A DNA stretch of 32,000 nt from Dictyoglomus thermophilum H-6-12 (GCF_000020965.1 NC_011297.1:1428525-1460524), one strand, 5' to 3'; positions 5,398-31,828 are shown, numbered from the stretch's first letter. A program made the numbers and translations. Notes: a model not told the origin generated them from the letters alone.

Positions 5398-7798
5398 TAA
5401 AGAAATTCCTCTCTTCTTTTAAAAGATCCATTGCAATCTCTTGAACTTTTTTGTAACTATACACAAAATCTTCTTTTCCAAATAAAAGAATTATATTTTG
5501 TCCAAACTTTGACCACTTTAAAAATTCAACTTCCATTAACGGTGGCTTAAGAAAGATTAAATACTTATATACTCTTAATGGCATCTTATCGGGATAAAAA
5601 TATACATCTTTTCCTTCAAAAAACTGTAGATCTTTTTCCCTACTCTTAGAAAAGCGTGCATCAACAAAAGCAGGATTAAAAGATCTTTTAGGAATTCTTA
5701 AATTTTTAATACCAAGCAAATCTGACAAACTTAGTCTTCTATCCTCCTTTTTAAGGTTAGAGAGGAAAATAGTAGGATTATTTATAGTCTTTACTAATTT
5801 TAAAAACTCTGTGGAAAATTTCTCATCTAAAAACCATTCTGCATCATCCCATATAACAATCTTATCTTTTTCCAGAGGCTTTGTTTTAAGCTCCCAAGGA
5901 GATATAGTCTCTTCGTTCCAATAAAATCTATTCCACCCAGGAGAGACAATAATATACTCTTTGCCTCTCTTTTTAACTTCATCTATAAGAAAGTCCTTTT
6001 CGGATTCATTTTCGAGGAAATAGAGAATTGCCTTTGTTTTTTCTCTTTTAGTTTCCTTTATTGCTTTTTCAGCCTCTCTCCACTCTTCTAAGTAGAAGTT
6101 AAAATACTCTCTTCCCTGATATCCTTCCTTCTCTATTCTCAAAATAATATCTAACGTTTGAGGAGATTCCTTAAAAGCATCTTCCTCAATACCAATAGAG
6201 AAAATAGGAGTTGATAAAACTTTCCCAGAGATATCCCCAATTTTAATCTTATATCTTCCCCCATTACCCATTTTTTCAAAATAAGCAATAACTGTTGAAC
6301 TTATCTTAAACCTTGGCTCCTCATTGCCCGGTCCAAAGGGAGGAAGTAAATCAAGTTCAGAGAGAAATTTACCAATATTCTCACTTTTAATCTTATCCAA
6401 AGATATCTCAGCATCTATTTTAACTTTTGGAGTAAAATCCACGTCTTTCCAAAGTTCATTTGCAAGCTTTATTGCATTAATCTTAAAAATTTCATAATCT
6501 TTTTCGAATAGGGAAAAACCAACTGCGCCTCTGTGTCCACCAAAATTTACCAAGTAGCTTGACAAATTAGATATAAAGTCAAATAAATTTACATCTTCTA
6601 CTCCTCTTCCAGAAAAAACGACAAAATCTCCTTCCTTCCTACCCAGAAAGAAGGGTACGTTATATTCCTCCACAAGCATAGAAGCAACAATTCCCATTAC
6701 CCCTCCCACATCCCTTCCCCACAAAGGATTATATAAAAATACTGCCTTATTATTCTCTATCTCTTCCTCTCTCAACATTTCCTTTGCTATTTCATAAACC
6801 CTCTCTACCTCTTCTCTCCTCTTCCTGTTAAATTCATCAAGCTTTTCACAAAGTATTTCTGCCTCTTCTACATTATCTGTAAGGAGCAGTCTAATTGCTT
6901 CTTCTACCTCTTTAAACCTACCTATGGAATTTATTCTCGGCGTTATATTAAAGATGACATCCTTTGTATTTATAATAGTATTTTTATCAAGCCCTACCTT
7001 TCTGATGAGAGTTTTGATCCCTACTAAGTCGGGATTTAAGAATTTTTCAAGACCAAATTTAACTAAGATTCTATTTTCATCTTTAAGTTCCATTAAATCT
7101 CCTAAGGTTCCTAAGGTTACCAACTCCAATATACCCTTTTCTTCATAAATATCTTTACCTATAAAATCTCCTAAAGCTTTTAAGAATTTAAAGGCAACCC
7201 CAACACCTGCCATATATGGATAAGGGTAATTATTTAAATAAGGATTAAATACAAGTAGGGCTTCTGGGATGTTTCCTTCCTCAGGTATATGGTGATCCGT
7301 CACAATAACCTCTACACCATTTTTCCTTAAATATTCAATCTCTTTTCTGCTTTTAATTCCACAATCCACAGTAATTAAAAGACTTACAAACTCATTTTGA
7401 GAAAGAGCTTTCTTAATACTTTTCTCCTTTAATCCATAACCCTCTTCCAACCTGTGAGGTATATAAAAACTTACATCCCATCCCCAATTAGATAAAACTC
7501 TATACATTATAGTTGTAGCCGTTATACCATCTACATCGTAATCTCCAAATATAAGTACTTTTCTTTTTGAATCTCTAAGCTTGACAAGAAAATTCATTGC
7601 TTTTTCTAAATCAGGAAAGTATAAAAATGGGTCATATAAGTCCTCTATCTTAGGATTTAAGAATCTCTTTGCCTGTAAAGAATCTTTTATTCCCCTATTC
7701 AAAAGGAGACGGGCAAGAAGAGGTGATACTCCAATTTCTTTTGCAAAAACCTCCTCTTGCCCTTTGTTTTCCTCAAAAAGGAGAATCCACCTTCTCAT
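5324..7798 (-). CDS. recJ: single-stranded-DNA-specific exonuclease RecJ with long C-terminal extension
   Basis: Carries DHH motifs (FGDYDVDGITA, VDCG, VTDHH) and DHHA1 (GGHRGAVGF). At 824 aa it runs about 250 residues past the part I recognise as the RecJ core. Confidence 0.9.
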   Translation of the reverse strand: MRRWILLFEENKGQEEVFAKEIGVSPLLARLLLNRGIKDSLQAKRFLNPKIEDLYDPFLYFPDLEKAMNFLVKLRDSKRKVLIFGDYDVDGITATTIMYRVLSNWGWDVSFYIPHRLEEGYGLKEKSIKKALSQNEFVSLLITVDCGIKSRKEIEYLRKNGVEVIVTDHHIPEEGNIPEALLVFNPYLNNYPYPYMAGVGVAFKFLKALGDFIGKDIYEEKGILELVTLGTLGDLMELKDENRILVKFGLEKFLNPDLVGIKTLIRKVGLDKNTIINTKDVIFNITPRINSIGRFKEVEEAIRLLLTDNVEEAEILCEKLDEFNRKRREEVERVYEIAKEMLREEEIENNKAVFLYNPLWGRDVGGVMGIVASMLVEEYNVPFFLGRKEGDFVVFSGRGVEDVNLFDFISNLSSYLVNFGGHRGAVGFSLFEKDYEIFKINAIKLANELWKDVDFTPKVKIDAEISLDKIKSENIGKFLSELDLLPPFGPGNEEPRFKISSTVIAYFEKMGNGGRYKIKIGDISGKVLSTPIFSIGIEEDAFKESPQTLDIILRIEKEGYQGREYFNFYLEEWREAEKAIKETKREKTKAILYFLENESEKDFLIDEVKKRGKEYIIVSPGWNRFYWNEETISPWELKTKPLEKDKIVIWDDAEWFLDEKFSTEFLKLVKTINNPTIFLSNLKKEDRRLSLSDLLGIKNLRIPKRSFNPAFVDARFSKSREKDLQFFEGKDVYFYPDKMPLRVYKYLIFLKPPLMEVEFLKWSKFGQNIILLFGKEDFVYSYKKVQEIAMDLLKEERNFFITQSHNFLLFLQKAKPSEIYSLLV

Positions 7799-20616: not shown

Positions 20617-21282
20617 ATGGAATGGATAGCAATGTTCATTTTAATAATAATTTTATTAATAAGGTTTACTTATGCTAATAATGGTAAAACCATAAAACTA
20701 CCAAGCCCACTTTTAAAAAGTAGTATTTCAATTGAGGAAGCTCTGCTTTTAAGAAGATCTAAAAGATTTTATAAAGATAACCCTCTCACCCTCCAAGAAT
20801 TGTCCCAAATACTTTGGGCTTCCCAAGGAATATCAGACCCTGATTATAAGTTTAGGACATGCCCTTCTGCTGGAGCCTTATACCCTTTAGAAATTTATGT
20901 CTCAGTTCTAAGGGTAGATGGTATTGAGAGTGGTATTTACAAGTATAATCCAGAAAAACATGAGATAGTACAAATCTATAAAAGTTCCAAAAGAGAAGAA
21001 CTCTACGAAGCATCCTTAAAACAAGAATGGATAAAAAGAGCCCCCGTAGTGATTATAATATGTGCCTCCTTTTATAAAACAAAGGCTAGGTATGGAGAAA
21101 GAGGAATAAGGTACATCTACATAGAAACAGGTCACTGTGCTCAGAATATTTATTTACAATGTGTCTCCTTAAACTTAGGAACCGTAGCTATAGGTGCTTT
21201 TGATGATGATGAAATAAAAAGAATTCTCAACTTACCCAAATTTGAATTCCCTACTTATCTAATGCCTATTGGCAAGATTTAG
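20617..21282 (+). CDS. SagB/ThcOx-type nitroreductase-family dehydrogenase with N-terminal TM anchor
   Basis: Contains RRSKRFY, ILWASQGI, PSAGALYPLEIY, YIETGHCAQNIYLQ and GAFDD, the nitroreductase/SagB-family pattern. The N-terminus is hydrophobic. Confidence 0.7.
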   Translation: MEWIAMFILIIILLIRFTYANNGKTIKLPSPLLKSSISIEEALLLRRSKRFYKDNPLTLQELSQILWASQGISDPDYKFRTCPSAGALYPLEIYVSVLRVDGIESGIYKYNPEKHEIVQIYKSSKREELYEASLKQEWIKRAPVVIIICASFYKTKARYGERGIRYIYIETGHCAQNIYLQCVSLNLGTVAIGAFDDDEIKRILNLPKFEFPTYLMPIGKI

Positions 21283-21356: not shown

Positions 21357-22391
21357 ATGTCCGAAAAGTTTATGATTAAAGAAATAAGAGAAGGGCTCCA
21401 TATAATCAAGAATTACAAAAATCGCTGGGAAGAATTTGTGGAAGTTTCAAATAAAATAAAATCTTTTGAATTTCATAATATTATTTTTGTGGCAAGAGGA
21501 TCGTCAGATAACGCTGCTACATGGGGAAAATATTATATGGAATCCCATTTGAATATTCCTGTATCCTTATGTGCTCCATCTTTATTTACTATCTACAAAC
21601 TCCCTCCTAATCTTAAATCTTCCCTTGTTATTGCCATCTCCCAGTCTGGAGAAAGTGATGACATCTGTGAAGTCGTGAGAAAAGCCAATGAACAAGGAGC
21701 TTTGACTATTGGTATAACCAATAATCCTCAAGGAAAGCTAGCTCAAATAGCCCAAATAAATATTTTTCTAAACTCAGGAGTAGAAAGAAGTGTTGCAGCC
21801 ACCAAAACCTATTTATCCCAATTGGTCTCTATCTATTTTTTAACAAATTCAATTATAGGTAGAAGTGCATTAGAAGAATTTGATAAAATATTAAACGCTA
21901 TGGAAGATATACAAAAGAGAGAAGAGGAAATAAAAGAAAAAGTAAAACCATATAAATACATGGAACACTGTGCAATCCTTGGAAGAGGGTTTAATTTATC
22001 TACAGCTTTAGAAACTGCTCTAAAGCTCAAGGAAACCTCTTATATTATTGCTCAAGCCTACTCCTCAGCAGATTTTATGCATGGTCCCCTTGCTCTTGCC
22101 TCGGAAGGATTTCCTGTATTTTTCTTCGTTCCTAAAGGAGAAAGTATGGAACATTCCTTGGAAGTTTTAGGAACCTTAAAGGAAAAGAGAAGCGATATAT
22201 TTATATTTACCAATGAAGCTGAGCTTACAAAAGAGTATGAGGGAATCTATATAGATTGTGATGTACCAGAATACGTCACCCCTATACCTTTTATTTACCC
22301 AGCTCAAATTTTTGCTTACTATCTTGCTGAGATTAAAGGAAGAGACCCTGACAATCCTAGAAACATAAGAAAGGTTACTATTACAAGATGA
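21357..22391 (+). CDS. double-SIS-domain protein resembling the isomerase half of GlmS (no glutaminase domain)
   Basis: Contains VARGSSDNAA and AISQSGESDD (SIS phosphosugar loops), a second SIS with LGRG...LETALKLKETSYI, and a C-terminus DNPRNIRKVTITR resembling the GlmS C-terminal tail. Length is 344 aa. Confidence 0.8.
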   Translation: MSEKFMIKEIREGLHIIKNYKNRWEEFVEVSNKIKSFEFHNIIFVARGSSDNAATWGKYYMESHLNIPVSLCAPSLFTIYKLPPNLKSSLVIAISQSGESDDICEVVRKANEQGALTIGITNNPQGKLAQIAQINIFLNSGVERSVAATKTYLSQLVSIYFLTNSIIGRSALEEFDKILNAMEDIQKREEEIKEKVKPYKYMEHCAILGRGFNLSTALETALKLKETSYIIAQAYSSADFMHGPLALASEGFPVFFFVPKGESMEHSLEVLGTLKEKRSDIFIFTNEAELTKEYEGIYIDCDVPEYVTPIPFIYPAQIFAYYLAEIKGRDPDNPRNIRKVTITR

Positions 22392-22861
22392 ACCACATAT
22401 TTCAAATATTAAAAGATTTATCACAAAATCCAATATTCATAATCCCCATATTGGTAGCTATCATCACGCAAGGAATAAAAGGGTTAATAAGAAGTCTTCA
22501 GGAGAAAAAATTCCTCTGGAGAGCCTTTTTTGAGTGGGGCGGAATGCCAAGTTCTCACTCAGCCCTTGTAGTATCACTATCTCTCATAATTGGCATAAAA
22601 GAAGGCTTCAATTCTACTCTATATATTCTTTCCATGTTCTTTGCAGGTATAGTAATAGCAGATGCCATTGGTGTGAGACTTGCCACCGAGGAACAAGCAA
22701 AAGTTATAAACAAAATTATACAAAAGGAATTAAAAGATCCTGAGTTAAAAGAGATCTACTTAAAGGAGTCTATAGGGCATACGCCCATAGAGGCTATAAC
22801 TGGAGGAATTATCGGCCTCATCTTAGCCCATGTTATATACTACACATTTTTTGTAAAATGA
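22388..22861 (+). CDS. divergent PAP2 family membrane protein (DUF212)
   Basis: Contains GGMPSSHSALV and IGHTPIEAITGG in a four-TM 157-aa protein. The start overlaps the SIS gene stop (ATGA). Confidence 0.75.
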   Translation: MNHIFQILKDLSQNPIFIIPILVAIITQGIKGLIRSLQEKKFLWRAFFEWGGMPSSHSALVVSLSLIIGIKEGFNSTLYILSMFFAGIVIADAIGVRLATEEQAKVINKIIQKELKDPELKEIYLKESIGHTPIEAITGGIIGLILAHVIYYTFFVK

Positions 22862-24057
22862 AAATAGCATTCTTTAGTGATACCTATATTCCTCAGAAGA
22901 ATGGCGTAGCTACCTCTTTAAATTTTCTAAAGAAGACTTTAGAAGAGGAGAATCACTCCATTTACCTTTTTATACCCAATATTCCCAACCTTCCTAAAGA
23001 AAAAAATATATATATCCTTCCATCCATAACATTTCCCTTTCAGAAAGAGCACCGAGTTGCCCTACCCTACTCTCTAAAATATGACTTTATGATAAGAAAA
23101 ATAAATCCTCATGTAATACACACCCACTCTCCTTTTTCTCTCGGAATCTTTGGACTATACGAAGGGAAAAGGATAAAAAGACCAATAATCCATACTTATC
23201 ATACACTTCTTCCAGATTATGCCTATTACATATGGGATCACTTTCCAAATTTTATAAAGCAAAACATAATAGATGAAGAAAAAGCTAGAAAAATAGCTAT
23301 CTGGATAAGCAGAGAATACTGTAATCATTCCGATTTAGTTATTGCTCCCTCAACTAAAATAAAGAGACTTCTTAAAGAATTTGGGGTAAAAAAACCCATA
23401 GAAGTACTTCCTAATGGCATAGATTTGGATAAATTTAGGAAAATTCCTAAAAATGAAGCAAGAAAAGATTTAAATCTCCCCCTTAATGCAGTACTACTTC
23501 TTTTTGTAGGAAGACTTGGAAAGGAAAAAAATATTGAATTTCTCATCGAAGTACTAGAAATTATTAAGAATAATACAGATAAATTGATCTATCTGGTTAT
23601 CGTGGGAGATAATCCCGATAAAAGAGTAATGGAAGAGCTAAAAAATAAAGCTAAGGCTCTAAACGTCTACGATAGGACTATTTTTACTGGATATTTGGAT
23701 TATGATAAAGTTATTAAAGCCTATTACGCCTCTGATATATTTGTATTTTCTTCAATTACAGAAACTCAAGGCTTAGTCATTCTTGAAGCGATGGCATCAG
23801 GACTTCCTGTGGTGGCTATAGAAGATGATGCAATTTCAGATTTTGTTAAAAATGGAATAAATGGTTTTTTAATACCCAATAATCAAGAAGCTAAGAAAAT
23901 ATTTTCAGAAAAAATAATAACCCTCATTGAGAATAGGGATTTATATGAAAAAATGTCTATAAATGCCCTTGATAACTCAAAGCTTTTCCATATAAAAATC
24001 CTTAATAAAAAACTTCTCTCCTTGTATGAATACCTGATAAAAGAATATAATATATAA
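22858..24057 (+). CDS. GT4-family glycosyltransferase (resembles glycolipid/diacylglycerol glycosyltransferases)
   Basis: The N-terminus is MKIAFFSDTYIPQKNGVATSL. The protein also has GRLGKEKN and the E-x7-E motif (ETQGLVILEAMASGLPVV). The start overlaps the PAP2 gene stop (ATGA). Confidence 0.85.
   Translation: MKIAFFSDTYIPQKNGVATSLNFLKKTLEEENHSIYLFIPNIPNLPKEKNIYILPSITFPFQKEHRVALPYSLKYDFMIRKINPHVIHTHSPFSLGIFGLYEGKRIKRPIIHTYHTLLPDYAYYIWDHFPNFIKQNIIDEEKARKIAIWISREYCNHSDLVIAPSTKIKRLLKEFGVKKPIEVLPNGIDLDKFRKIPKNEARKDLNLPLNAVLLLFVGRLGKEKNIEFLIEVLEIIKNNTDKLIYLVIVGDNPDKRVMEELKNKAKALNVYDRTIFTGYLDYDKVIKAYYASDIFVFSSITETQGLVILEAMASGLPVVAIEDDAISDFVKNGINGFLIPNNQEAKKIFSEKIITLIENRDLYEKMSINALDNSKLFHIKILNKKLLSLYEYLIKEYNI
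24022..24051 (+). promoter_or_regulatory. weak candidate internal promoter (TTGTAT-18 nt-TATAAT) ahead of nurA
   Basis: The -10 ends 8 nt before the SD-less ATG at 24060. The element lies inside the AT-rich 3' end of the GT4 gene, so a chance match is quite possible. Confidence 0.25.
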
Positions 24058-24059
24058 TA

Positions 24060-25169
24060 ATGCCCGATTTTATATCTCTCTTTATATCCGAAATAAAGAA
24101 AAAAAGACCCATTCTTGAGGAACTTCTTATTAAAAGAAGTCTTAGTGACAAATCTTTTGTTTCAGAGTTTATTGGGAAGATTTGGAATAAACTTTCAGAC
24201 TCCTATCAGTTTACCAACAAACCAACATTTGCCGTAGATGCTTCCCAAAGAACCCTATCCTTCTCTTTAGGACCTTATTTAATAATAACCCAAGCTCTTG
24301 CCATAGGCTCCAATGGATATGAAAAAGCTCTTGTATCTCTCGAGCCTGTATGGGGTTCTATACCAGAAACTCAACTGGGGCTCTTAAGAGACCTTTTAAT
24401 GCAAGATTTGGAAATTAGGCTTGCCCTTCAAATTATTAAAGAAAACAAAGCTCCTTTGATATTATTTATCGATGGCTCTTTATTATCAAGAATCTCATAC
24501 CTTTTGAGGTATTTATACAGTTTTGAAGATGAAAATTACAAAAACCTTGCTCGAGAAGTACTAATAAACACTTTAGATCTTATAAATTCTTCCAAGAACA
24601 ATGTAGATGTCATCTCTATTTCTAAGTCTTCCCGAAATACTTTTCTTTTCCAAATCCTATCTCTTGACAATCCTGATATAGATAAAACAACACCTTACAA
24701 ACCCACTGATAGCGAGATCTTAAGCATATTTACTTCAGAGCCCGGATATACAACTCCACTATTGATAGGAGCAGAGATGGGGCTTGGTCACAAACAATTA
24801 GAGATCATAGAAAAGGACCCAAACCTTCAAAATATTCTTAATAATTCTCCAGCCTTTTATACCTTCTATATAAGACTTATGCCAAGAGATCAGTTCCTAA
24901 GGATAGACTTCCCAGCCAATATGGTAGGAGAAAAGTCGAGTATACTCTCCGTAAATTACTTTTGGGGGAAAGATATAAATATAGATCAAATCTTAGGAGT
25001 ATTAAGAGAAAATTGTGTAAATACGAAGATATATCAAACTCCTTTGTATTTTGTGGACCAAATTGTTAGAATAAAAAGAGAACCTGACTTAGAAAGGTAT
25101 ATAATGATTTTGAAAACTGAATTTCCAGGAATTATTGAACTTGACAGAAGTCAAGGGAGGTTCTACTAA
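24060..25169 (+). CDS. nurA: NurA-domain 5'-3' nuclease
   Basis: A D-E-D catalytic pattern appears in NurA-like context: TFAVDASQ (D60), QDLEIRLAL (E118) and LILFIDGSLL (D138). The protein is 369 aa and lies directly upstream of herA. Confidence 0.7.
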   Translation: MPDFISLFISEIKKKRPILEELLIKRSLSDKSFVSEFIGKIWNKLSDSYQFTNKPTFAVDASQRTLSFSLGPYLIITQALAIGSNGYEKALVSLEPVWGSIPETQLGLLRDLLMQDLEIRLALQIIKENKAPLILFIDGSLLSRISYLLRYLYSFEDENYKNLAREVLINTLDLINSSKNNVDVISISKSSRNTFLFQILSLDNPDIDKTTPYKPTDSEILSIFTSEPGYTTPLLIGAEMGLGHKQLEIIEKDPNLQNILNNSPAFYTFYIRLMPRDQFLRIDFPANMVGEKSSILSVNYFWGKDINIDQILGVLRENCVNTKIYQTPLYFVDQIVRIKREPDLERYIMILKTEFPGIIELDRSQGRFY

Positions 25170-25172
25170 TAA

Positions 25173-26855
25173 ATGGAATTAAAATGTGTAGGATACTTAG
25201 TAGGAGAAAGCTATTGTGATAATTTCCAATTTATTACCAACGAAGAATTAGCTCCTAAAAGGCTCGAATATGTGGTAATCAAAGGGATTGCCTCTTCAAA
25301 TGAGGAAGTAGAAGTATTAGCTCAAGTAGAAAGTCTAAAAGCCTTTTCAGATGTACTCTCAGAAGATCAAGAATACGATGCTACAACAAAACTTTTGGAA
25401 TTAAACTACAAGATTCCTCTAAAACTTATAGCTTCTGCAAGAGTACTAGGATATTTGGACAAAGATGGAAATATTCTTCTTCCTAGATCTGTATCTCTCC
25501 CAGGTTCTCCTGTATACCTTGCCCCCGATGACCTTCTTCAAAGATTCTTTACCCACAATAAAAGCACTGCTATTGAAATAGGTACTCTTCTTTACAGACC
25601 TAACGTAAAAGTTACCCTTGACCCTAACGGCCTTAGAAGGCACCTTGCCATAATAGCTCAAACAGGGGCAGGAAAATCTTATCTCACAGGACTTCTTTTA
25701 GAGAAACTTGTAAAGTTAGGAGCAACTATACTGGTCTTTGATCCTAATAGTGATTATGTACTTTTAAGAAGAAAAAGAAACAATTTAAAAGAATTCTCGT
25801 CTATTGCCCATAATGTCACTATTTATAGAATTCCTAAAGTACAAGGAAGATTTTCCGATGATATGATAGGTGGTGTGGAACCTTACTCCATAAGGTTTAG
25901 CGAATTAGAAAATGAACAAATAGCAGAAATTCTTGGAATATCCGAATATAGCAATATAAGAGATGCCGTTGAAAAAGCAATTGAAGAATTAAGAGAGTCA
26001 AGAATAGATTTCACTCCCAATGAGTTATATGAGAAACTTAAGGATATGGCAGGAATAGAAGAAAAAGATGAAGAAGATTTTAGTCTGGACTTTGATGACT
26101 ACGAAAGAAAAATTATAGAAAAAATGGAAAAAAAGAATAAGAAAAAATATCCTGAGGAAACTATGATTGGAGCAAGGAAGGCACTAAAATATGTAAAATG
26201 GATAAAGGATTATCCTATATGGGGATTTAAAGATATCTCTCCTGAAAAAATATTAAAACCTGCCCACATATCAGTCATTGATCTTGCAGGAATAGAAAAA
26301 AATCTTCAAGATCTTGTAGTTAGTAAACTCTTAAATGATATATGGACAAAAGCAAAGTCTGAGGGTCTTCCCTATCCTTTGTTTATAGTACTCGAAGAGG
26401 CCCATAACTTAGTGCCAAAAGAAAAGGGAGAAAAATTAAAAAGTGCAAGAATAATAAACTCCATCGCTGCAGAGGGTAGAAAATTTAAAGTATTTCTTAT
26501 AGTAGTTACCCAAAGACCTTATAAAATAAGCAGTAATACTCTTTCTCAATGCGGAAGTCAAATCATTATGAGACTCACAAATCCCACTGATCAGACTGCA
26601 GTGAAAGAAGCTTCCGAAGCTCTCTCTGAGAATCTATTCCAGGATCTTCCAGGATTAAATATTGGAGAAGCAATAATTCTAGGAAGATTAACCAAAATAC
26701 CTGTAATGGTAAAGATTGGAGAAAGAGAAACTGCAGAGGGTGGATTTGATATTGACTTAGAAGAAGAATTCCAAAAAGCTTTAGACAACATAGAAAGTAC
26801 TATGATAGAAAAGAATGATACAGAAATTCTACCTGACTTTGGGAGTGAAATCTAA
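25173..26855 (+). CDS. herA: HerA-type (FtsK/HerA superfamily, DUF87) hexameric DNA translocase/helicase
   Basis: Has a HAS-barrel-like N-terminus, RRHLAIIAQTGAGKSY (Walker A, K168), PLFIVLEEAHNL (Walker B), and RKFKVFLIVVTQRP...IIMRLTNPTD. The SD GGGAGG lies upstream. Confidence 0.85.
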   Translation: MELKCVGYLVGESYCDNFQFITNEELAPKRLEYVVIKGIASSNEEVEVLAQVESLKAFSDVLSEDQEYDATTKLLELNYKIPLKLIASARVLGYLDKDGNILLPRSVSLPGSPVYLAPDDLLQRFFTHNKSTAIEIGTLLYRPNVKVTLDPNGLRRHLAIIAQTGAGKSYLTGLLLEKLVKLGATILVFDPNSDYVLLRRKRNNLKEFSSIAHNVTIYRIPKVQGRFSDDMIGGVEPYSIRFSELENEQIAEILGISEYSNIRDAVEKAIEELRESRIDFTPNELYEKLKDMAGIEEKDEEDFSLDFDDYERKIIEKMEKKNKKKYPEETMIGARKALKYVKWIKDYPIWGFKDISPEKILKPAHISVIDLAGIEKNLQDLVVSKLLNDIWTKAKSEGLPYPLFIVLEEAHNLVPKEKGEKLKSARIINSIAAEGRKFKVFLIVVTQRPYKISSNTLSQCGSQIIMRLTNPTDQTAVKEASEALSENLFQDLPGLNIGEAIILGRLTKIPVMVKIGERETAEGGFDIDLEEEFQKALDNIESTMIEKNDTEILPDFGSEI

Positions 26856-28036
26856 TGATCAAAATCGTGATTACTGCAGACAATCACTTGGGAAAGTATT
26901 ACAAGAAACTGCTTCCAGAAAGATTGCAAGAACGAAGAAAAAGGTTAAGAAATGTCTTTGAGGAAGTAGTAAATTACGCTATAGAAGAAAAAGCAGATAT
27001 CTTTATCCATGCTGGAGACTTATTTGATTCCTCAACTCCCAGGAACCAAGATCTAACTTTTATTGCTCGTGAATTTTCAAAAATGGTAAAAAATAACATA
27101 AAAATATACGCTATTGGAGGAAATCATGATGCTCCAAATATGCTTGAGTCTGACTCTTACCCTATAAGGATTTTTGAAGAAGCAGGATTAATAAAGACCT
27201 TTTCCTCGCAGTCTACAATAAGCTATGAAATCTTCGAAAAAGATAACATAAGTATACTTGTTTCTGGCCTATCTCATGACCCAAGAAAAAAGGGAAAAAT
27301 AGACCCATTAGAAAAAAATGTAATAGTTCCTCCAGATTTCCCTAAGGAAAACAATTTATTCAAGATCCTAATTCTTCACTACTCCTTTGAAAAATTTGCT
27401 CACCCCAAAGCCCAAGAGCCCCAAGTCTCCACTAACACTCTTTACGATTTGCCTTTTGATCTTTATATATTAGGTCACTTACATGAACAAAACACCTATC
27501 GCTTTGCCAACAAACATGTAATTATTCCTGGCAGTACAGAAAGATTTGATTTTGGAGAAGAAAATCTTAAACCAGGATTTTATCTCTTAACTATTGAAAA
27601 GGGAAGGATAAATTATGAACATATAGAGCTGAACGTTCAGCCAATGAAAAATTTAGAAATTAAATTAACAGAAATACCACAAAAAGAACCTACAAATTCC
27701 ATTATAGAGAGAATAATAAAAAACTCCCACAAAGACCTACTTTTAAAATGCAAACTTGTGGGAGAGATTCCACTCTCCATGTATCAGTCTATTAACTTTA
27801 GTAAAATTCTCGAGGCAGGAATAAACTCTAACTTTTTGTTTGATCTTGATACCCAAAACTTAAGAATAAAGGGTGAAGAGATAAATACCCTCCCTGCTCC
27901 AGAGCTTAGTGTTGACAAAAATCTTGAAATAATTACAAAAAAATATATAGAAGAAGTTCCTGAAGACAGAGAGATAATATTAGAGGCTTTGAAATGGATA
28001 AAAGAAGAATTAAAAAGTAGAGAAATAATACTATGA
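26855..28036 (+). CDS. mre11: Mre11/SbcD-type metallophosphoesterase nuclease
   Basis: All calcineurin-like phosphoesterase motifs are present: ITADNHLG, HAGDLFD, GGNHD, ILHYS and LGHLHE. A C-terminal helical tail is plausible for Rad50 binding. The start overlaps the herA stop (TAATG). Confidence 0.85.
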   Translation: MIKIVITADNHLGKYYKKLLPERLQERRKRLRNVFEEVVNYAIEEKADIFIHAGDLFDSSTPRNQDLTFIAREFSKMVKNNIKIYAIGGNHDAPNMLESDSYPIRIFEEAGLIKTFSSQSTISYEIFEKDNISILVSGLSHDPRKKGKIDPLEKNVIVPPDFPKENNLFKILILHYSFEKFAHPKAQEPQVSTNTLYDLPFDLYILGHLHEQNTYRFANKHVIIPGSTERFDFGEENLKPGFYLLTIEKGRINYEHIELNVQPMKNLEIKLTEIPQKEPTNSIIERIIKNSHKDLLLKCKLVGEIPLSMYQSINFSKILEAGINSNFLFDLDTQNLRIKGEEINTLPAPELSVDKNLEIITKKYIEEVPEDREIILEALKWIKEELKSREIIL

Positions 28037-30984
28037 TTAAACTTGTAAGTCTTACTCTTAGGAACTTTAAACAATATCGAACTGCTCATATAAACTTTCC
28101 TGAAAAAGGTAAGATCCTTATCAAGGGAAAAAATGAGGCAGGAAAAAGCACCATATTTGAAGCTATAGGCTTTGCCCTATTTGGGAAACCGGTATATGTG
28201 GGTACCATTTCAAACCTGATAAAGTTTAATACAGAAAAAGCAGAAATTGAACTTGTAGTAAAAACTGAAGATAAAATCTTAACTATAAGCAGAACACTTA
28301 AGAAAAACCCTCAAGGTAGTACCTCTCAGGAAGCTACACTTCGCATAAAGCAAAATAATAATCCAACTCCTATTATCGTAACAAACCCTAGCAGTGTAAA
28401 TCCAAGAATTATAAAAGAAATAGGCATAGACCAAGATATATTCATAAATACCTGCTTCATAGGGCAGAAAAGGTTAGAAACATTAGAGAATTTAGGAGCT
28501 AAAGAAAGACAACAACTTATATCTAAACTATTTAATTTAGATTACTTTGTAAATCTAATAGAAAAGGCAAAAGATACAAGAAAGGAATTTATAAGTCAAA
28601 AAGAGAACTATGAACTTATTAGAAAAGCAGCAGAAGCCAAGAAAGAACTCCCTGAAATTAAGGAAAGAATTAATGAAATAGAAAACAGAATAAAGGAAAT
28701 CGAAAAGATAGAATTATCTCAAAATATTGTAAAAAAAGAGGAACTCTTACATAACTTAGAAGAAGAGATTAAAAAATTAGAGGAAGAATTTGATAAAGTA
28801 AAAAAGGATGTGGAACTATTAGAAAAGTGCAAAGAAGAGGAGAAAATTATAAGCGAAATAAAAAGTATTGAGGAAAAAATCAAAGTACTGGAAAGACAGA
28901 AGAGTGAAAACTTACAAAGAATTAAAAATTTAGAGGAAAGGATAAAAGAAGAAGGAGAGATAAGAGAAAAAATAAGGTTTTTGGAGGAAGTAAAAAATAT
29001 AAAATCTCAAATTGATGAAATCACAAAAACAATAAATGAGGAAAAATTAAAAATCTCAAAACTGGAAGAGATAATCCCAAATCTGTCAGAAAAGGTAGAA
29101 AAATATAAAGAAACAATTAAGGAAATAGAAAAAGAAAAAACTTTATTAGATGAAATTAACAAAGTAGAAAATGAAATCCAGAAACTTGAAGAAAGAAAAA
29201 GAAATCTTGAAAAAAGAAAAGAAAGGTTAGAAAAAATATTAAATAACTTTTCAAATACCAAAGAAATTCTTGATCCTTATAAAAAAGCATTAGAGTACAA
29301 AGAAAAAGAAATCCAAATTTTCTCATTACAAAAAGATTTCTCAAAGGCTAAAAATAGACTAATTCTTACTTCTACCTTAACTATCCTTTCCTTTGTTTTA
29401 TCCTTTGCTTTAAACTACTTTTTCCTAATACCCTCCTTGGTACTCCTAATCTTTAGTTTTCTTACCTATAGAAATTATTCTCAAACCAATAAAGATCTCA
29501 CTAAACAATTAAGCATTTTGGAATTTATAAAAAAAGACATTCCTGACCATCTTAAAGATAAAAATCAAAAAGAGTTAGAACAAGAGCTCCAAAATCTTGA
29601 AAAAGAACTTGAAGCTAAGAAAATTAAAACAGAAAAAATAATAGAATCGTTAAAGACAAAAGCCTCAAGTATAGACACTTTAACCTTAATAGAGGAAAGG
29701 ACAAAGCTAAAAAGAGAAATTGACAACATAAACTCACTAAAAACTGAGGCTGAAAGATTAATCTCCGAGCTTGCCTCAAGGCTTAGTTGTAATAAAGATA
29801 TTAAATCTGTAGAAGAAAAATTACTAAAGGCACAAGAGATCTTAGAAAAGAAAAAGCAAGAACTTAAAGAAAAAGAAACAGAAATGGAAAATCTAAAAAA
29901 ATCCGATCCCCTTCCTGACAAGGAACTTTTAGTTTTAAGCTCTGAAAAAGGCTCTTTGGAAAATAGGCTTAAAAATATAGAGGAAGATAAAAAAGAGTTA
30001 GCTGATAAAGAGAAGAGAAAAATAGAGCTTGAAGAAGATATCAAAAGAGCACAAGATGAAATTGAAAGGCTATCGAAAAAATTACCTTCATTAAGCGAAG
30101 ATTATATAAATAAATTGAAGGATACTATAAAAGACTTAGAGGAAAGAAAGGTAAAAGAAAAATACGACAGTATATCATCCCAACTGAACAATAAGAGGGG
30201 ACAAAGAGAGGCTGTAGAAAAAGAATATACCAAACTTATCGAAGAATTCAAAAATCGTTTTAAGGAAGAAAATTGGAAAGACTATGCTTCAATAAGCATA
30301 GACCCTAAGGAAAAAGAAATGCTTTTGAGTCAAAAAGAAGAACTTATCAAAACCCTCGGAGAAAAGGAGGCTATACTTGAAGAGTATGAGAGCAAAACAG
30401 GACAAAAAAGGGATGACTTGATACCAGAAAAAGTAGAAGAAGACTATAAAGAGATAGAAAGAAAAATACAAAAAATGGATTATGCTATCAAGATTGCTGA
30501 AAGTACAAGAGAAAGCATATTAAAATCTATACTTCCAAGAACCATGGCTTTTATGCAAAGAATATTACCTATCTTAACATCAGATAGATACCATTACGCC
30601 GAGATTGATGAAGATTATAAACTAAGAGTATACACCAGCGATACTAAAGATCCATTAGGAAAAGAAAGATTCAGTGGTGGAACTCAGGACCAGATCTCTT
30701 TAGCTTTAAGGCTTGCTTTTGCTATGGCAACTCTTCCCCAAGATAAAGGAGTACAACCTAAATTCATATTCTTAGATGAACCTTTAGGGTCCTTTGATGA
30801 AGACAGAGCAAAAGGACTATTATATCTCATAACCCAAGGAGAAGTATCAGAATTTTTTGATCAAATATTTGTAGTAACTCACGTACCGATAGACGAAGAC
30901 CTATTCGATGAAGTCTATTACATAGATAATGGACAAATAACAAAAATAGATAATGATAATCCTAATCTAAATTTAGAGTTTTAA
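28033..30984 (+). CDS. rad50: Rad50/SbcC-like SMC-family ATPase, hook-less, with central hydrophobic hairpin
   Basis: Carries Walker A GKNEAGKST (K38), the Q-loop region FIGQ, signature FSGGTQDQ (S881), Walker B FIFLDEP (D915 E916), and the H-loop VVTHV. K/E-rich heptad-like arms several hundred aa long lie on each side of residues 443-479. The start overlaps the mre11 stop (ATGA). Confidence 0.85.
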   Translation: MIKLVSLTLRNFKQYRTAHINFPEKGKILIKGKNEAGKSTIFEAIGFALFGKPVYVGTISNLIKFNTEKAEIELVVKTEDKILTISRTLKKNPQGSTSQEATLRIKQNNNPTPIIVTNPSSVNPRIIKEIGIDQDIFINTCFIGQKRLETLENLGAKERQQLISKLFNLDYFVNLIEKAKDTRKEFISQKENYELIRKAAEAKKELPEIKERINEIENRIKEIEKIELSQNIVKKEELLHNLEEEIKKLEEEFDKVKKDVELLEKCKEEEKIISEIKSIEEKIKVLERQKSENLQRIKNLEERIKEEGEIREKIRFLEEVKNIKSQIDEITKTINEEKLKISKLEEIIPNLSEKVEKYKETIKEIEKEKTLLDEINKVENEIQKLEERKRNLEKRKERLEKILNNFSNTKEILDPYKKALEYKEKEIQIFSLQKDFSKAKNRLILTSTLTILSFVLSFALNYFFLIPSLVLLIFSFLTYRNYSQTNKDLTKQLSILEFIKKDIPDHLKDKNQKELEQELQNLEKELEAKKIKTEKIIESLKTKASSIDTLTLIEERTKLKREIDNINSLKTEAERLISELASRLSCNKDIKSVEEKLLKAQEILEKKKQELKEKETEMENLKKSDPLPDKELLVLSSEKGSLENRLKNIEEDKKELADKEKRKIELEEDIKRAQDEIERLSKKLPSLSEDYINKLKDTIKDLEERKVKEKYDSISSQLNNKRGQREAVEKEYTKLIEEFKNRFKEENWKDYASISIDPKEKEMLLSQKEELIKTLGEKEAILEEYESKTGQKRDDLIPEKVEEDYKEIERKIQKMDYAIKIAESTRESILKSILPRTMAFMQRILPILTSDRYHYAEIDEDYKLRVYTSDTKDPLGKERFSGGTQDQISLALRLAFAMATLPQDKGVQPKFIFLDEPLGSFDEDRAKGLLYLITQGEVSEFFDQIFVVTHVPIDEDLFDEVYYIDNGQITKIDNDNPNLNLEF
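29359..29469 (+). other. predicted helical-hairpin membrane anchor at the Rad50 coiled-coil apex (aa 443-479)
   Basis: The segment reads KAKNR-LILTSTLTILSFVLSFAL-NY-FFLIPSLVLLIFSFLTY-RNYSQTNK. Two hydrophobic stretches of about 17-18 aa are joined by a short turn, with basic residues on both flanks. Confidence 0.6.
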
Positions 30985-31828
30985 GATATTCTTTAAATTG
31001 TTCTCCAAGTCCTTCTCTTTTAAGAGCAAGCTCTACTGAGGCTATTAAAAATCCAAGTTTACTACCTGTATCATACCTCTTACCTTTAAATTCATAAGCA
31101 TATATGGCTTCTTTCTCCAAAAGCATTTTCAACCCATCCGTAAGCTGTATTTCTCCCCCTCTTCCAGGCTTAACTTTCTCAAGCATAGGAAATATCTCAG
31201 GAGTTAATATATACCTTCCTACAATAGCAAGATCAGAAGGTGCCTCATCTACCGACGGTTTCTCTACAAGATCAGTTACTTGATATATACCCTCATCAAT
31301 CTTCTTACCTGCTATAACCCCATAATTTTTAACCTCGTCTTTTGGAACTCTCTCTACAGCTATGACTGAGCATTTGTATCTTTCATATATCTCTATCATC
31401 TGTTTCATACAAGGCACATCACTTACAATAAGATCATCGCTCAAAATTACAGCAAAAGGTTCATTCTTAACAAGTTCTTTGGTAACCAAAACAGCATGAC
31501 CAAGCCCAAGAGGTTCTTTCTGCCTAATATAATAGACAGTAGCAAGCTCTGAGATCTCCCTTACCTGTCTCAGTAAGTCCAATTCTCCTTTTTTCTGTAA
31601 GAAATATTCCAGTTCAAAAGATATATCAAAATGATCTTCGATCGCCCTCTTATTCCTGCCTGTGACAATAATTATCTCGTCAATTCCAGAATTTACAGCC
31701 TCCTCTACTGCATATTGAATTATAGGCTTATCCACTACAGGAAGCATCTCCTTAGGTTGCGCCTTTGTAGCTGGAAGAAATCTAGTACCAAGACCTGCAG
31801 CAGGAAAGACAGCCTTATTTATAGACAT
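30962..31828 (-). CDS. galU: UTP--glucose-1-phosphate uridylyltransferase GalU
   Basis: The N-terminus AVFPAAGLGTRFLPATKAQPKEMLPVVDKP, then LGLGHAV and VEKP, are classic GalU strings. The SD GGGGG lies upstream. Confidence 0.92.
   Translation of the reverse strand: MSINKAVFPAAGLGTRFLPATKAQPKEMLPVVDKPIIQYAVEEAVNSGIDEIIIVTGRNKRAIEDHFDISFELEYFLQKKGELDLLRQVREISELATVYYIRQKEPLGLGHAVLVTKELVKNEPFAVILSDDLIVSDVPCMKQMIEIYERYKCSVIAVERVPKDEVKNYGVIAGKKIDEGIYQVTDLVEKPSVDEAPSDLAIVGRYILTPEIFPMLEKVKPGRGGEIQLTDGLKMLLEKEAIYAYEFKGKRYDTGSKLGFLIASVELALKREGLGEQFKEYLKTLNLD

What the first reader, a model, noticed from the sequence alone, without database searches (positions are those of the whole stretch)
29359..29469. 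Rad50-like ATPase has a transmembrane-type hairpin where the zinc hook should be
Seen directly:
- The 983-aa Rad50/SbcC-like protein has an intact ABC head (Walker A, signature, Walker B, H-loop) and long K/E-rich arms.
- It contains only three isolated cysteines (NTCFIG, LEKCKEE, RLSCNKD), so it has no CxxC hook.
- Near the sequence midpoint (aa 443-479 of 983) lies LILTSTLTILSFVLSFAL-NY-FFLIPSLVLLIFSFLTY, bracketed by KAKNR and RNY..K.

Established knowledge: in Rad50/SbcC the two arms fold back as an antiparallel coiled coil, and the apex carries the CxxC zinc hook that bridges two complexes.

Inference: two short hydrophobic helices with positive charge on both flanks are the topology needed to insert the apex into the membrane while both arms return to the cytoplasm. 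This would give a membrane-tethered Mre11-Rad50 instead of a hook-dimerised one. Such a machine could act on DNA at the membrane, for example incoming DNA, segregating chromosomes or envelope-proximal breaks.

Caveat from memory: B. subtilis has a second Mre11/Rad50-like pair (YhaO/YhaN, also called SbcF/SbcE), and I recall YhaN being annotated as a membrane protein. If this gene is an orthologue, the trait is a poorly explained family feature rather than unique.
Basis: partly seen in the sequence, partly recalled or inferred. Interest (0 to 1): 0.85.

Follow-up and report, generated by a model that had tools for sequence, protein, structure and literature searches.

The report
Rad50 with membrane hairpin, no hook
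The Rad50 DNA-repair ATPase of Dictyoglomus thermophilum has no zinc hook at the tip of its long arm; it carries a two-helix, membrane-type hydrophobic hairpin instead, which turns out to be a widespread but essentially undescribed trait shared with the Bacillus SbcE/YhaN family and probably tethers the Mre11-Rad50 nuclease to the cell membrane.

Summary
The 983-aa protein (28033-30984, identical to D. thermophilum H-6-12 B5YA63) has all the ABC head motifs, only three isolated cysteines and no CxxC. It has a 37-residue uncharged stretch (aa 443-479) flanked by K/R. AlphaFold2 places the coiled-coil turn at N461, in the middle of that stretch. Hydrophobicity matches the membrane proteins in the window and none of its other proteins.

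The trait is not unique. Among 104 homologues, a central CxxC and a central hydrophobic hairpin are mutually exclusive. Of 65 full-length relatives from genome contigs, 57 carry the hairpin (Dictyoglomota, Chloroflexota, Bathyarchaeia, Caldisericota, Asgard and others). Sixteen of the 65 lie in the same NurA-HerA-Mre11-Rad50 operon.

A Listeria YhaN/SbcE homologue that I located, and 148 of 149 YhaN-family representatives, have the same element. The 2009 SbcE paper called it an insoluble "unique central domain" and never a membrane segment.

By head sequence the window protein is much closer to hooked Rad50 than to YhaN, so strict orthology is not supported and common origin is unresolved.

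Best reading: a membrane-anchored Mre11-Rad50 whose hairpin replaces the hook. Membrane insertion and function remain untested inference. This is a new variant of a known kind, of moderately high interest.

The parts
24060..25169 (+). NurA nuclease gene, first gene of the four-gene repair operon
   Evidence: Pfam NurA PF09376, 3.9e-18. Its stop lies 3 nt before the herA start.
25173..26855 (+). HerA hexameric helicase/translocase gene
   Evidence: Pfam DUF87/HerA 1e-37 and HAS-barrel. NCBIfam helicase_HerA 9e-69, below the equivalog cut-off. No hydrophobic segment.
26855..28036 (+). Mre11/SbcD-type nuclease gene, which overlaps the rad50 start by 4 nt
   Evidence: Pfam Metallophos 3.7e-15. NCBIfam Mre11_Sulfo 3e-29. 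The phosphoesterase motifs DNH, GDLFD, GNHD and GHLH are readable in the translation.
28033..30984 (+). Rad50-like ABC ATPase, 983 aa, with no hook and a central hydrophobic hairpin; identical to D. thermophilum B5YA63 / WP_012547458.1
   Evidence: The closest solved sequences are the M. jannaschii, T. maritima and P. furiosus Rad50 heads. Foldseek finds Rad50 heads at rmsd 2.5-3 A.
28123..28149 (+). Walker A loop GKNEAGKST (aa 31-39), with Glu where hooked relatives have Gly
   Evidence: Among the 104 homologues, NE[AS]GKS occurs in all but one of the hairpin-bearing proteins and NG[AS]GKS in the hooked ones. The same P-loop occurs in Listeria YhaN and in 145 of 149 YhaN representatives. It is not exclusive, because viral hooked proteins also carry NEAGKS.
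28540..29358 (+). Ascending coiled-coil arm (aa 170-442), K/E-rich
   Evidence: AlphaFold2 helices 170-304, 307-365 and 368-460. 51% charged residues and heptad periodicity.
29359..29412 (+). Hairpin helix 1 (aa 443-460, LILTSTLTILSFVLSFAL), predicted membrane-spanning
   Evidence: Continuous with the arm helix in the AlphaFold2 model. Hessa-scale sum -1.26. K439, K441 and R442 lie immediately upstream.
29413..29415 (+). Apex turn, N461
   Evidence: The only non-helical residue between helices 368-460 and 462-501 in the AlphaFold2 model, with pLDDT 76-84 in this region. P, G or N occurs in the central 12 residues of the hairpin in 96% of the clade.
29416..29469 (+). Hairpin helix 2 (aa 462-479, YFFLIPSLVLLIFSFLTY), predicted membrane-spanning
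   Evidence: Followed by R480.
29470..30576 (+). Descending coiled-coil arm (aa 480-848) with several short breaks
   Evidence: AlphaFold2 helices 462-501 through 798-848. 45% charged residues.
30673..30693 (+). ABC signature motif SGGTQDQ (aa 881-887)
   Evidence: S881, G882, G883, D886 and Q887 are invariant in the clade alignment. Listeria YhaN has a degenerate LSQATKEQ at this position.
30763..30882 (+). Walker B FIFLDE (aa 911-916), D-loop D922 and H-loop H950
   Evidence: Invariant columns F913, L914, D915, E916, D922 and H950.

Best explanation
The gene encodes the Rad50 subunit of a NurA-HerA-Mre11-Rad50 end-processing machine. In this Rad50 the zinc hook at the coiled-coil apex has been replaced by a transmembrane-type helical hairpin: two helices of about 18 residues joined by a one-residue turn at N461.

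Shown here: the hook is absent. The apex falls inside a 37-residue uncharged segment as hydrophobic as those of the window's membrane proteins. K/R residues flank it on both sides. The ATPase head is intact. The feature is conserved in a large clade and in SbcE/YhaN.

Inferred: the hairpin inserts into the cytoplasmic membrane with both flanks, both arms, the heads and Mre11 on the cytoplasmic side. The complex would hang from the membrane on a rod of roughly 40 nm. Hairpins of two Rad50 chains would pack against each other in the bilayer and so supply the apex-joining function normally given by Zn-(CxxC)2. The machine would then act on DNA ends that come close to the membrane, for example incoming DNA or envelope-proximal breaks, and hand them to HerA-NurA for resection.
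For: - No CxxC, and a single hydrophobic segment at relative position 0.47.
- Internal calibration: this protein scores -1.26, the other proteins without a predicted membrane segment score at least +2.5, and membrane proteins in the window score down to -3.4.
- AlphaFold2 (mean pLDDT 83) gives helices 368-460 and 462-501, broken only at N461.
- Among 104 homologues, a central CxxC and a central hairpin are mutually exclusive: 27 hairpin, about 73 CxxC, none with both.
- 57 of 65 full-length genome-derived relatives have the hairpin. Uncharged runs are mostly 36-61 residues, which fits two passes and is the only topology that returns both arms to one side.
- The residue directly flanking the hairpin is K/R in 65 of 72 cases on the N side and 63 of 72 on the C side. 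Flank net charge is +1.7 and +0.8, against -0.15 in the arms.
- Hairpin sequence is poorly conserved while its hydrophobicity, length and position are conserved.
- The operon NurA-HerA-Mre11-Rad50 is conserved with the hairpin form in Dictyoglomota, Bathyarchaeia, an Asgard MAG, Chloroflexota and others.
- Listeria YhaN has the same element, as do 148 of 149 YhaN representatives.
- The SbcE central domain is hydrophobic and insoluble in E. coli. [quoted passage not shown]
Against: - No dedicated transmembrane predictor and no experiment was available. The hydrophobicity scales were applied by hand, and the Hessa values came from memory.
- Two 18-residue helices with a one-residue turn are short for a full double pass, so a re-entrant hairpin is possible.
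- AlphaFold2 cannot distinguish a membrane from a buried protein core.
- B. subtilis SbcE-YFP foci are described as lying 'on the nucleoid' and as moving pole to pole within a minute. That behaviour is not typical of an integral membrane assembly.
- Six Chloroflexota relatives with the same P-loop have neither hairpin nor hook, so an apex element is not indispensable.
- Hairpin-hairpin pairing and the DNA substrate are pure inference.
Confidence: 0.6

Rival explanations
1. The hydrophobic apex is a membrane-independent oligomerisation core. Hairpins from two or more Rad50 chains would bury each other in a soluble helical bundle that simply substitutes for the zinc hook.
For: The hook's role is apex joining, and the hairpin sits exactly where the hook would be. 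S/T-rich or G/A-rich faces suggest helix-helix packing. The insolubility of the isolated SbcE central domain fits an exposed core as well as a membrane segment.
Against: The WIN hairpin has no charged residue in 37 positions and low amphipathicity (hydrophobic moment 0.7-0.9 against a mean hydrophobicity of 2.2). Clade members have uncharged runs of mostly 36-61 residues. A four-helix bundle would leave about half of each helix exposed to solvent. The K/R collars on both flanks follow the positive-inside pattern of membrane hairpins. Sequence drifts freely as long as hydrophobicity is kept, which is typical of lipid-facing helices.
Confidence: 0.12
2. The hairpin is a monotopic, re-entrant wedge that dips into the cytoplasmic leaflet without crossing the bilayer. 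It would still localise the complex to the membrane.
For: The helices are only about 18 residues long, with a one-residue turn and Pro467 near the turn. The shortest clade members have 36-38 uncharged residues.
Against: Many relatives have uncharged runs of 45-61 residues, enough for two full passes plus a loop. An 18-residue helix (about 27 A) can span a hydrophobic core.
Confidence: 0.15
3. The operon is not chiefly a chromosomal break-repair system. It would be a membrane-stationed nuclease/translocase set that acts on DNA crossing the envelope, either transforming DNA or invading phage and plasmid DNA, that is, uptake processing or defence.
For: SbcE is recruited to the competence pole in a ComK-dependent manner, and its loss lowers transformation 20-fold. 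HerA belongs to the FtsK/VirB4-like translocases and has antiphage relatives. One Asgard hairpin-type homologue lies next to a BrxL_N gene.
Against: PADLOC gives only generic SMC/HerA similarity and no system context. The gene order is that of the housekeeping archaeal repair operon, and it sits among housekeeping genes alongside PolX and RecJ in the same window. No viral contig carried the hairpin form. There is no competence or defence neighbour here.
Confidence: 0.2
4. The stretch is an artefact, such as a frameshift, an insertion or a decaying gene.
For: None found.
Against: The ORF is intact with all catalytic motifs. The identical protein is present in the complete D. thermophilum genome and in independent assemblies. 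The feature is conserved in homologues down to 23% identity.
Confidence: 0.01

Closest known systems
SbcE/YhaN with SbcF/YhaO (Bacillus subtilis and Bacillota; Pfam PF13514, 'YhaN AAA domain')
   Same: Both are SMC-like ABC ATPases with long arms, no CxxC and a central hydrophobic element about 40 residues long at the midpoint, flanked by K/R. Both have an NE[AS]GK[ST] Walker A and an adjacent SbcD/Mre11-type nuclease gene. The window protein passes the PF13514 gathering score, 31 versus 22 bits.
   Different: Overall similarity is poor. phmmer of the window protein finds Listeria SbcC but not Listeria YhaN, and head HMM scores are 20-45 bits. YhaN has a degenerate signature motif (LSQATKEQ), whereas here it is the canonical SGGTQDQ. 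YhaN sits in a yhaM-yhaN-yhaO neighbourhood and coexists with a hooked SbcC; here the gene occupies the Rad50 slot of a NurA-HerA-Mre11-Rad50 operon. The published description never interpreted the central domain as a membrane segment.
Canonical archaeal-type Rad50-Mre11 of NurA-HerA-Mre11-Rad50 operons (e.g. Sulfolobus, Pyrococcus, Methanocaldococcus; Thermotoga Rad50)
   Same: Head sequence and fold match: best NCBIfam hits are archaeal Rad50 equivalogs at 1e-24 to 1e-31, PDB sequence hits are M. jannaschii, T. maritima and P. furiosus Rad50, and Foldseek rmsd is 2.5-3 A. The arms are an antiparallel coiled coil. The four-gene operon has overlapping or near-abutting start and stop codons.
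   Different: There is no CPxC zinc hook; a hydrophobic hairpin takes its place. The Walker A has Glu instead of Gly. All NCBIfam Rad50 scores are far below the equivalog cut-offs, about 100 versus 700-1087 bits.
Hooked Rad50 in NurA-HerA-Mre11-Rad50 operons of Bacillales megaplasmids and haloarchaeal plasmids
   Same: The same four genes occur next to each other.
   Different: These carry CPVC, CPIC or CPTC hooks and an NG[AGV]GK[ST] P-loop, with no hydrophobic segment. They show that the operon exists with either apex type.

Membership tests
Rad50/SbcC (Mre11-Rad50 complex) | Bipartite ABC ATPase head with Walker A, Q-loop, signature, Walker B, D-loop and H-loop | tested here: met
   K38, Q145, SGG 881-883, DE 915-916, D922 and H950 are invariant in the alignment. 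Pfam AAA_23 scores 82 bits. Rad50 heads are the best PDB matches.
Rad50/SbcC (Mre11-Rad50 complex) | Long intramolecular antiparallel coiled coil between the head halves | tested here: met
   The AlphaFold2 model is helical from 170 to 848 with one reversal at residue 461, mean pLDDT 83. Heptad periodicity is present.
Rad50/SbcC (Mre11-Rad50 complex) | Adjacent, co-transcribed Mre11/SbcD nuclease | tested here: met
   26855-28036 is a metallophosphoesterase of the Mre11 type and overlaps the rad50 start by 4 nt.
Rad50/SbcC (Mre11-Rad50 complex) | CxxC zinc hook at the coiled-coil apex | tested here: not met
   There are only three isolated Cys and no CxxC anywhere. 72 hooked homologues align CPxC in one central column, whereas this clade has none.
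Archaeal-type NurA-HerA-Mre11-Rad50 operon | The four genes are clustered | tested here: met
   The same order occurs in 16 related loci with the hairpin form.
SbcE/YhaN | No CxxC; central hydrophobic domain between the two heptad regions | tested here: met
   Window protein. Listeria YhaN has an uncharged stretch at aa 429-470. 148 of 149 representatives have it.
SbcE/YhaN | Deviant Walker A, NE[AS]GK[ST] | tested here: met
   GKNEAGKST here, GENEAGKST in Listeria YhaN, and 145 of 149 representatives. It is not exclusive to the family, because hooked viral proteins also carry it.
SbcE/YhaN | Significant overall sequence similarity to YhaN, closer than to SbcC/Rad50 | tested here: not met
   phmmer gives no hit to Listeria YhaN at E<=10 but 6e-10 to Listeria SbcC. 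Head HMM scores are 20-45 bits to YhaN versus 86-118 bits to hooked Rad50.
SbcE/YhaN | Common ancestry with YhaN, forming one clade apart from hooked Rad50 | tested here: inconclusive
   In NJ bootstrap the hooked class separates from hairpin class plus YhaN in 126 of 200 replicates. YhaN attaches mainly to the longest hairpin-class branch, and distances are saturated.
SbcE/YhaN | yhaM-yhaN-yhaO neighbourhood, coexisting with a hooked SbcC | tested here: not met
   The neighbourhood here is NurA-HerA-Mre11. In Listeria it is YhaM/YhaN/YhaO next to PrsA2, with a separate SbcCD locus. Whether D. thermophilum has a second, hooked paralogue could not be tested.
Lamassu LmuB / Wadjet JetC defence ATPases | Cognate partner genes (LmuA/LmuC or JetA/B/D) next to the SMC-like ATPase | tested here: not met
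   There is only generic SMC-like similarity (LmuB model 98 bits), and none of the neighbouring genes is a Lamassu or Wadjet partner; the only neighbour with strong PADLOC hits is HerA.
Integral membrane protein (helical hairpin) | Experimentally or predictor-verified membrane insertion and topology | not testable with these tools
   Only hydrophobicity scales, flank charges and an AlphaFold2 model were available.

The most novel reading that the evidence does not exclude
A single ancient lineage of Mre11-Rad50 machines, spanning Dictyoglomota, Chloroflexota, Bathyarchaeia, Asgard archaea and, as a fast-evolving offshoot, the SbcE/YhaN proteins of Bacillota, swapped the zinc hook for a transmembrane hairpin. 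Apex joining would then happen inside the lipid bilayer. The whole end-resection apparatus, together with HerA-NurA, would work as a membrane-stationed device for DNA that arrives at or is held at the envelope. This would mean the hook is not a universal requirement of Mre11-Rad50 function.
Probability: 0.3. Interest if true: 0.8.

Novelty: new variant of a known kind. Interest (0 to 1): 0.6.

Why it matters
The zinc hook is treated as a defining and functionally essential part of Rad50/SbcC in all domains of life. What the apex contributes is still debated: closing one complex, bridging two DNA ends, or long-range allostery.

Here a large natural clade, including a cultured and fully sequenced thermophile, keeps the canonical head, arms, Mre11 partner and HerA-NurA operon but replaces the hook with a membrane-type hairpin. 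That is a ready-made experiment of nature on what the apex must do. It also offers a concrete reading of the unexplained 'unique central domain' of B. subtilis SbcE. And it predicts a spatial restriction of end processing to the membrane-proximal zone that can be tested directly.

If the hairpin proved soluble or dispensable, the finding would reduce to an annotation note.

Tried and rejected
- **Plasmid collection for YhaN.** A tblastn of the window protein returned only hooked Rad50/SbcC from Priestia, Pontibacillus, Listeria, Streptomyces, Halocatena and Acetoanaerobium. This was useful as contrast but gave no YhaN.
- **Locating Listeria YhaN.** I walked along a Listeria chromosome that is mislabelled as a plasmid. 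The first two 50-kb guesses missed. ClpB served as a landmark and the third fetch succeeded.
- **Homologue search with Listeria YhaN.** The homologous-protein search listed only near-identical Listeria sequences and added little beyond the UniRef name 'YhaN AAA domain-containing protein'.
- **hhalign profile-profile comparisons.** My script printed no hhalign scores, so I used HMM-to-sequence scores instead.
- **Walker A as a marker.** I considered NEAGKS a clean synapomorphy of the hairpin clade. I rejected it as exclusive after finding NEAGKS together with central CxxC in viral contigs.
- **Defence-system reading.** PADLOC gave only generic hits.
- **Literature.** Searches for a transmembrane or hook-less Rad50, SbcEF or PF13514 found nothing relevant beyond the 2009 SbcE paper.
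- **Supplement.** The SbcE paper's supplementary alignment is not held.
- **Second paralogue.** The absence of any hooked Dictyoglomus protein among the hits is only weak evidence.
Full report
**What is in the window.** Coordinates 24060-30984 on the + strand hold four genes whose start and stop codons overlap or lie within 3 nt of each other.
- 24060-25169 is NurA (Pfam PF09376).
- 25173-26855 is HerA (DUF87/HerA plus HAS-barrel).
- 26855-28036 is an Mre11/SbcD-type metallophosphoesterase.
- 28033-30984 is a 983-aa SMC-like ABC ATPase whose best curated matches are archaeal Rad50 equivalogs (1e-24 to 1e-31). All of these fall far below the equivalog cut-offs.

The protein is identical to ACI18826.1 / WP_012547458.1 / UniProt B5YA63 of Dictyoglomus thermophilum H-6-12, deposited as 'DNA double-strand break repair Rad50 ATPase, putative'. 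So the window comes from that cultured thermophile. PolX and RecJ genes lie in the same window.

**Checking the observation.**
- Residues 443-479 map to nt 29359-29469 and read LILTSTLTILSFVLSFALNYFFLIPSLVLLIFSFLTY, with KAKNR before and RNY after.
- Cysteines are only at 141, 266 and 586, so no CxxC exists.
- The catalytic motifs are intact and conserved: K38, Q145, SGG 881-883, DE 915-916, D922 and H950.
- This is the only hydrophobic segment in the protein. Kyte-Doolittle 19-residue windows reach 2.23. Summed Hessa-scale values are -1.26 and -1.1 kcal/mol for the two halves, against +7.2 for the best segment elsewhere.
- As an internal control, the other window ORFs of at least 120 aa with no predicted membrane segment score +2.5 or higher on the same measure. 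The membrane proteins in the window score as low as -3.4.
- With about 39% charged residues overall, a 37-residue run free of D/E/K/R is expected about 1e-5 times per such protein (my arithmetic).

**Structure.** AlphaFold2 was run with a 104-sequence alignment and gave mean pLDDT 83.
- The model has a canonical split ABC head.
- It has a helical ascending arm (170-460) and a descending arm (462-848).
- The only reversal is the single residue N461, with pLDDT 76-84 there.
- The apex of the antiparallel coiled coil therefore lies in the middle of the hydrophobic stretch: helix 443-460, turn, helix 462-479.

Foldseek against the PDB retrieves SMC5/6, full-length Chaetomium Rad50 and archaeal or Thermotoga Rad50 heads at 2.5-3 A rmsd. 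Sequence search of the PDB finds only Rad50 heads.

**The trait is a clade character, not a curiosity of one gene.**
- *The 104 homologues.* A central CxxC and a central hydrophobic hairpin are mutually exclusive. Twenty-seven have the hairpin, about 73 a central CxxC (mostly CPxC), four neither and none both. The 72 CPxC hooks align in one column.
- *The genome scan.* A pattern-guided scan of one genome per GTDB species returned 80 related loci. Of 65 full-length proteins, 57 have a strong central hairpin, 2 a weak one, and 6 (all Chloroflexota) neither hairpin nor hook.
- *Taxa with the hairpin.* Dictyoglomota, Chloroflexota (Anaerolineae, Ktedonobacteria), Nitrospirota, Acidobacteriota, Armatimonadota, Caldisericota, Bathyarchaeia, Geoglobus and an Asgard MAG.
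- *Operon context.* Sixteen loci keep the full NurA-HerA-Mre11-Rad50 order and others keep Mre11-Rad50. Many Chloroflexota copies stand alone.
- *Hairpin properties.* Sequences are barely alignable between lineages, but length, midpoint position (median 0.47), hydrophobicity and a central P/G/N (96%) are kept. Uncharged runs are mostly 36-61 residues. The residue directly abutting the hairpin is K or R in 65 of 72 (N side) and 63 of 72 (C side) members. The flanks carry net positive charge, whereas the arms are slightly negative.

An even number of passes is the only topology that lets both arms return to the head. The lengths fit two helices and not one.

**Bias caveat.** The scan patterns (NEAGKS..., PxFLFLDEPL) were derived from hairpin-bearing sequences. 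The 80 loci therefore measure the size of this clade, not the frequency of hairpins among all Rad50.

**Relation to SbcE/YhaN.**
- *The literature.* The 2009 paper on B. subtilis SbcE (PMC2811018) reports no CxxC and a deviant Walker A. It describes a 'unique central domain' with a conserved proline and a hydrophobic first half, completely insoluble in E. coli. The word 'transmembrane' does not occur in the paper.
- *A YhaN sequence.* I obtained one by walking a Listeria monocytogenes chromosome that is filed as a plasmid. L093:12042-14765(-) encodes a 907-aa protein between YhaM and YhaO homologues, next to PrsA2. It has Walker A GENEAGKST, one cysteine, and an uncharged stretch at aa 429-470 (TMVSLGIFAVAFVLMIVFQAIWSVALVFVSALIVGYAFITTG) with lysines on both sides. 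UniRef names this cluster 'YhaN AAA domain-containing protein'.
- *Family size.* An exhaustive phmmer search of 1.84 billion representatives found 1865 clusters at E<=1e-30. Of the best 149 full-length representatives, 148 have the central hairpin and 145 the NE[AS]GK[ST] loop.

The SbcE 'central domain' is therefore the same kind of element, and it is a universal family feature.

**Is the window protein a YhaN?** Not by sequence.
- phmmer of the window protein hits Listeria SbcC (6e-10) but not Listeria YhaN at E<=10.
- HMMs of the hairpin clade's head halves score about 117 bits (N half) and 86-100 bits (C half) on hooked relatives. They score only 20-28 and 38-45 bits on YhaN proteins. Hooked Rad50 is just as far from YhaN.
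- YhaN has a degenerate signature motif, whereas the window protein has SGGTQDQ.
- A neighbour-joining bootstrap of head domains gives YhaN as a clan in 200 of 200 replicates. Hairpin clade plus YhaN separate from hooked proteins in 126 of 200. However, YhaN mostly attaches to the longest hairpin-clade branch and the distances are saturated.
- The shared NEAGKS loop is suggestive but not exclusive. Thirty-eight of 39 viral-contig relatives carry NEAGKS (these hits were collected with an NEAGKS pattern and a Walker B pattern), 26 of those 38 have a central CxxC, and none has a hairpin.

Common origin versus convergence therefore stays open.

**Mechanism.**
- *Shown.* The hook is lost. The apex is a two-helix, uncharged, K/R-collared hairpin. 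The ATPase and the nuclease partner are intact. The operon is conserved.
- *Inferred.* The hairpin inserts into the cytoplasmic membrane with an in-in topology, so heads and Mre11 hang about 40 nm into the cytoplasm (273-residue arm at about 1.5 A per residue). Hairpins of the two Rad50 chains pack in the bilayer, where S/T- or G/A-rich faces are common, and replace Zn-mediated apex joining. The complex would then act on DNA ends near the membrane and feed HerA-NurA.
- *Against.* SbcE foci are also reported 'on the nucleoid' and are highly mobile. The helices are short. Six relatives have no apex element. No transmembrane predictor or experiment was available.

Rivals are a soluble hydrophobic oligomerisation core, a re-entrant monotopic wedge, and a primary role in uptake or defence. 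A sequence artefact is excluded by conservation.

**Novelty and verdict.** Seven full-text searches found no paper that describes a transmembrane hairpin in Rad50, SbcC or SbcE, or a hook-less Rad50 in a NurA-HerA operon. The library is incomplete, and automatic database annotation of the helices probably exists (from memory, not checked). The hydrophobic central domain of SbcE is published, so the kind is known. New here are three points:
- its reading as an apex membrane hairpin;
- its presence in proteins whose heads are canonical Rad50 and which occupy the Rad50 slot of the archaeal-type operon;
- its breadth across bacterial and archaeal phyla.

I rate it a new variant of a known kind, with interest 0.6.

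Noticed in passing
L014, L021, L022, L028, L045, L071 (Chloroflexota loci; Rad50-like ORFs as listed): Six full-length relatives with the NEAGKS P-loop have neither a central hydrophobic hairpin nor a CxxC. Their mid-regions are A/R/E-rich and helical-looking with a conserved 'PPKS...VGYLEG' patch. This may be a third apex type or a secondary loss.
   Followed up: partly
L001:5049-9773 (Promethearchaeota MAG, P0020): A 1574-aa hairpin-type homologue lies downstream of a weak Mre11-like gene and directly upstream of a BrxL_N-domain gene. This hints at a defence-island context for one divergent member. It is also the long branch that attracts YhaN in the tree.
   Followed up: partly
L085 (Priestia megaterium pFDU301A) and L087 (Pontibacillus plasmid): Bacillales megaplasmids carry complete archaeal-style NurA-HerA-Mre11-Rad50 operons with ordinary CPVC/CPIC hooks, followed by murA. 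The operon therefore exists in bacteria with either apex type.
   Followed up: partly
L094-L132 (IMG/VR viral contigs): Viral Rad50/SbcC-like proteins of 400-740 aa combine the NEAGKS Walker A with central CxxC motifs (CGLC, CPKC, CSFC and others). None has a hydrophobic hairpin. About a dozen have neither element.
   Followed up: partly
PLSDB records NZ_CP030101.1 (Listeria, 2.9 Mb) and NZ_CP154629.1 (Acetoanaerobium, 2.6 Mb): These 'plasmid' records are whole chromosomes mislabelled as plasmids and are almost unannotated in the collection. That was useful here, but it is a trap for plasmid statistics.
   Followed up: no
window 2804-4546 (+) and 5324-7798 (-): A PolX-family polymerase with a PHP domain and a RecJ-like DHH/OB exonuclease lie about 20 kb upstream of the operon. 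Several DNA-end-processing genes are thus loosely grouped in this part of the genome.
   Followed up: no
window 21357-24057 (+): A SIS-domain protein, a DUF212 (divergent PAP2, membrane) protein and a GT4 glycosyltransferase run head-to-tail into nurA, with overlapping or near-abutting start and stop codons. The GT4 gives a sub-threshold hit to 'GT4-conflict' (25.4 versus 26 bits). Co-transcription with the repair operon is possible but was not examined.
   Followed up: no
window 29565-30044 (-) and 29007-29261 (-), 27784-28089 (-): Antisense ORFs of 84-159 aa rich in S/F/L lie inside rad50 and mre11. They are the mirror image of the K/E-rich codons (AAA/GAA read as TTT/TTC) and are almost certainly not genes.
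   Followed up: no
window 30962-30984: The rad50 stop region overlaps by 23 nt the 3' end of the convergent UTP-glucose-1-phosphate uridylyltransferase-like gene (30962-31828, - strand). No terminator-like site was found between them.
   Followed up: no
window 20617-21282 (+): A nitroreductase-family ORF has a strongly hydrophobic segment (Kyte-Doolittle 19-residue window 2.04, 18-residue sum -1.69). This is unusual for the family and may reflect a membrane anchor or a wrong start codon.
   Followed up: no
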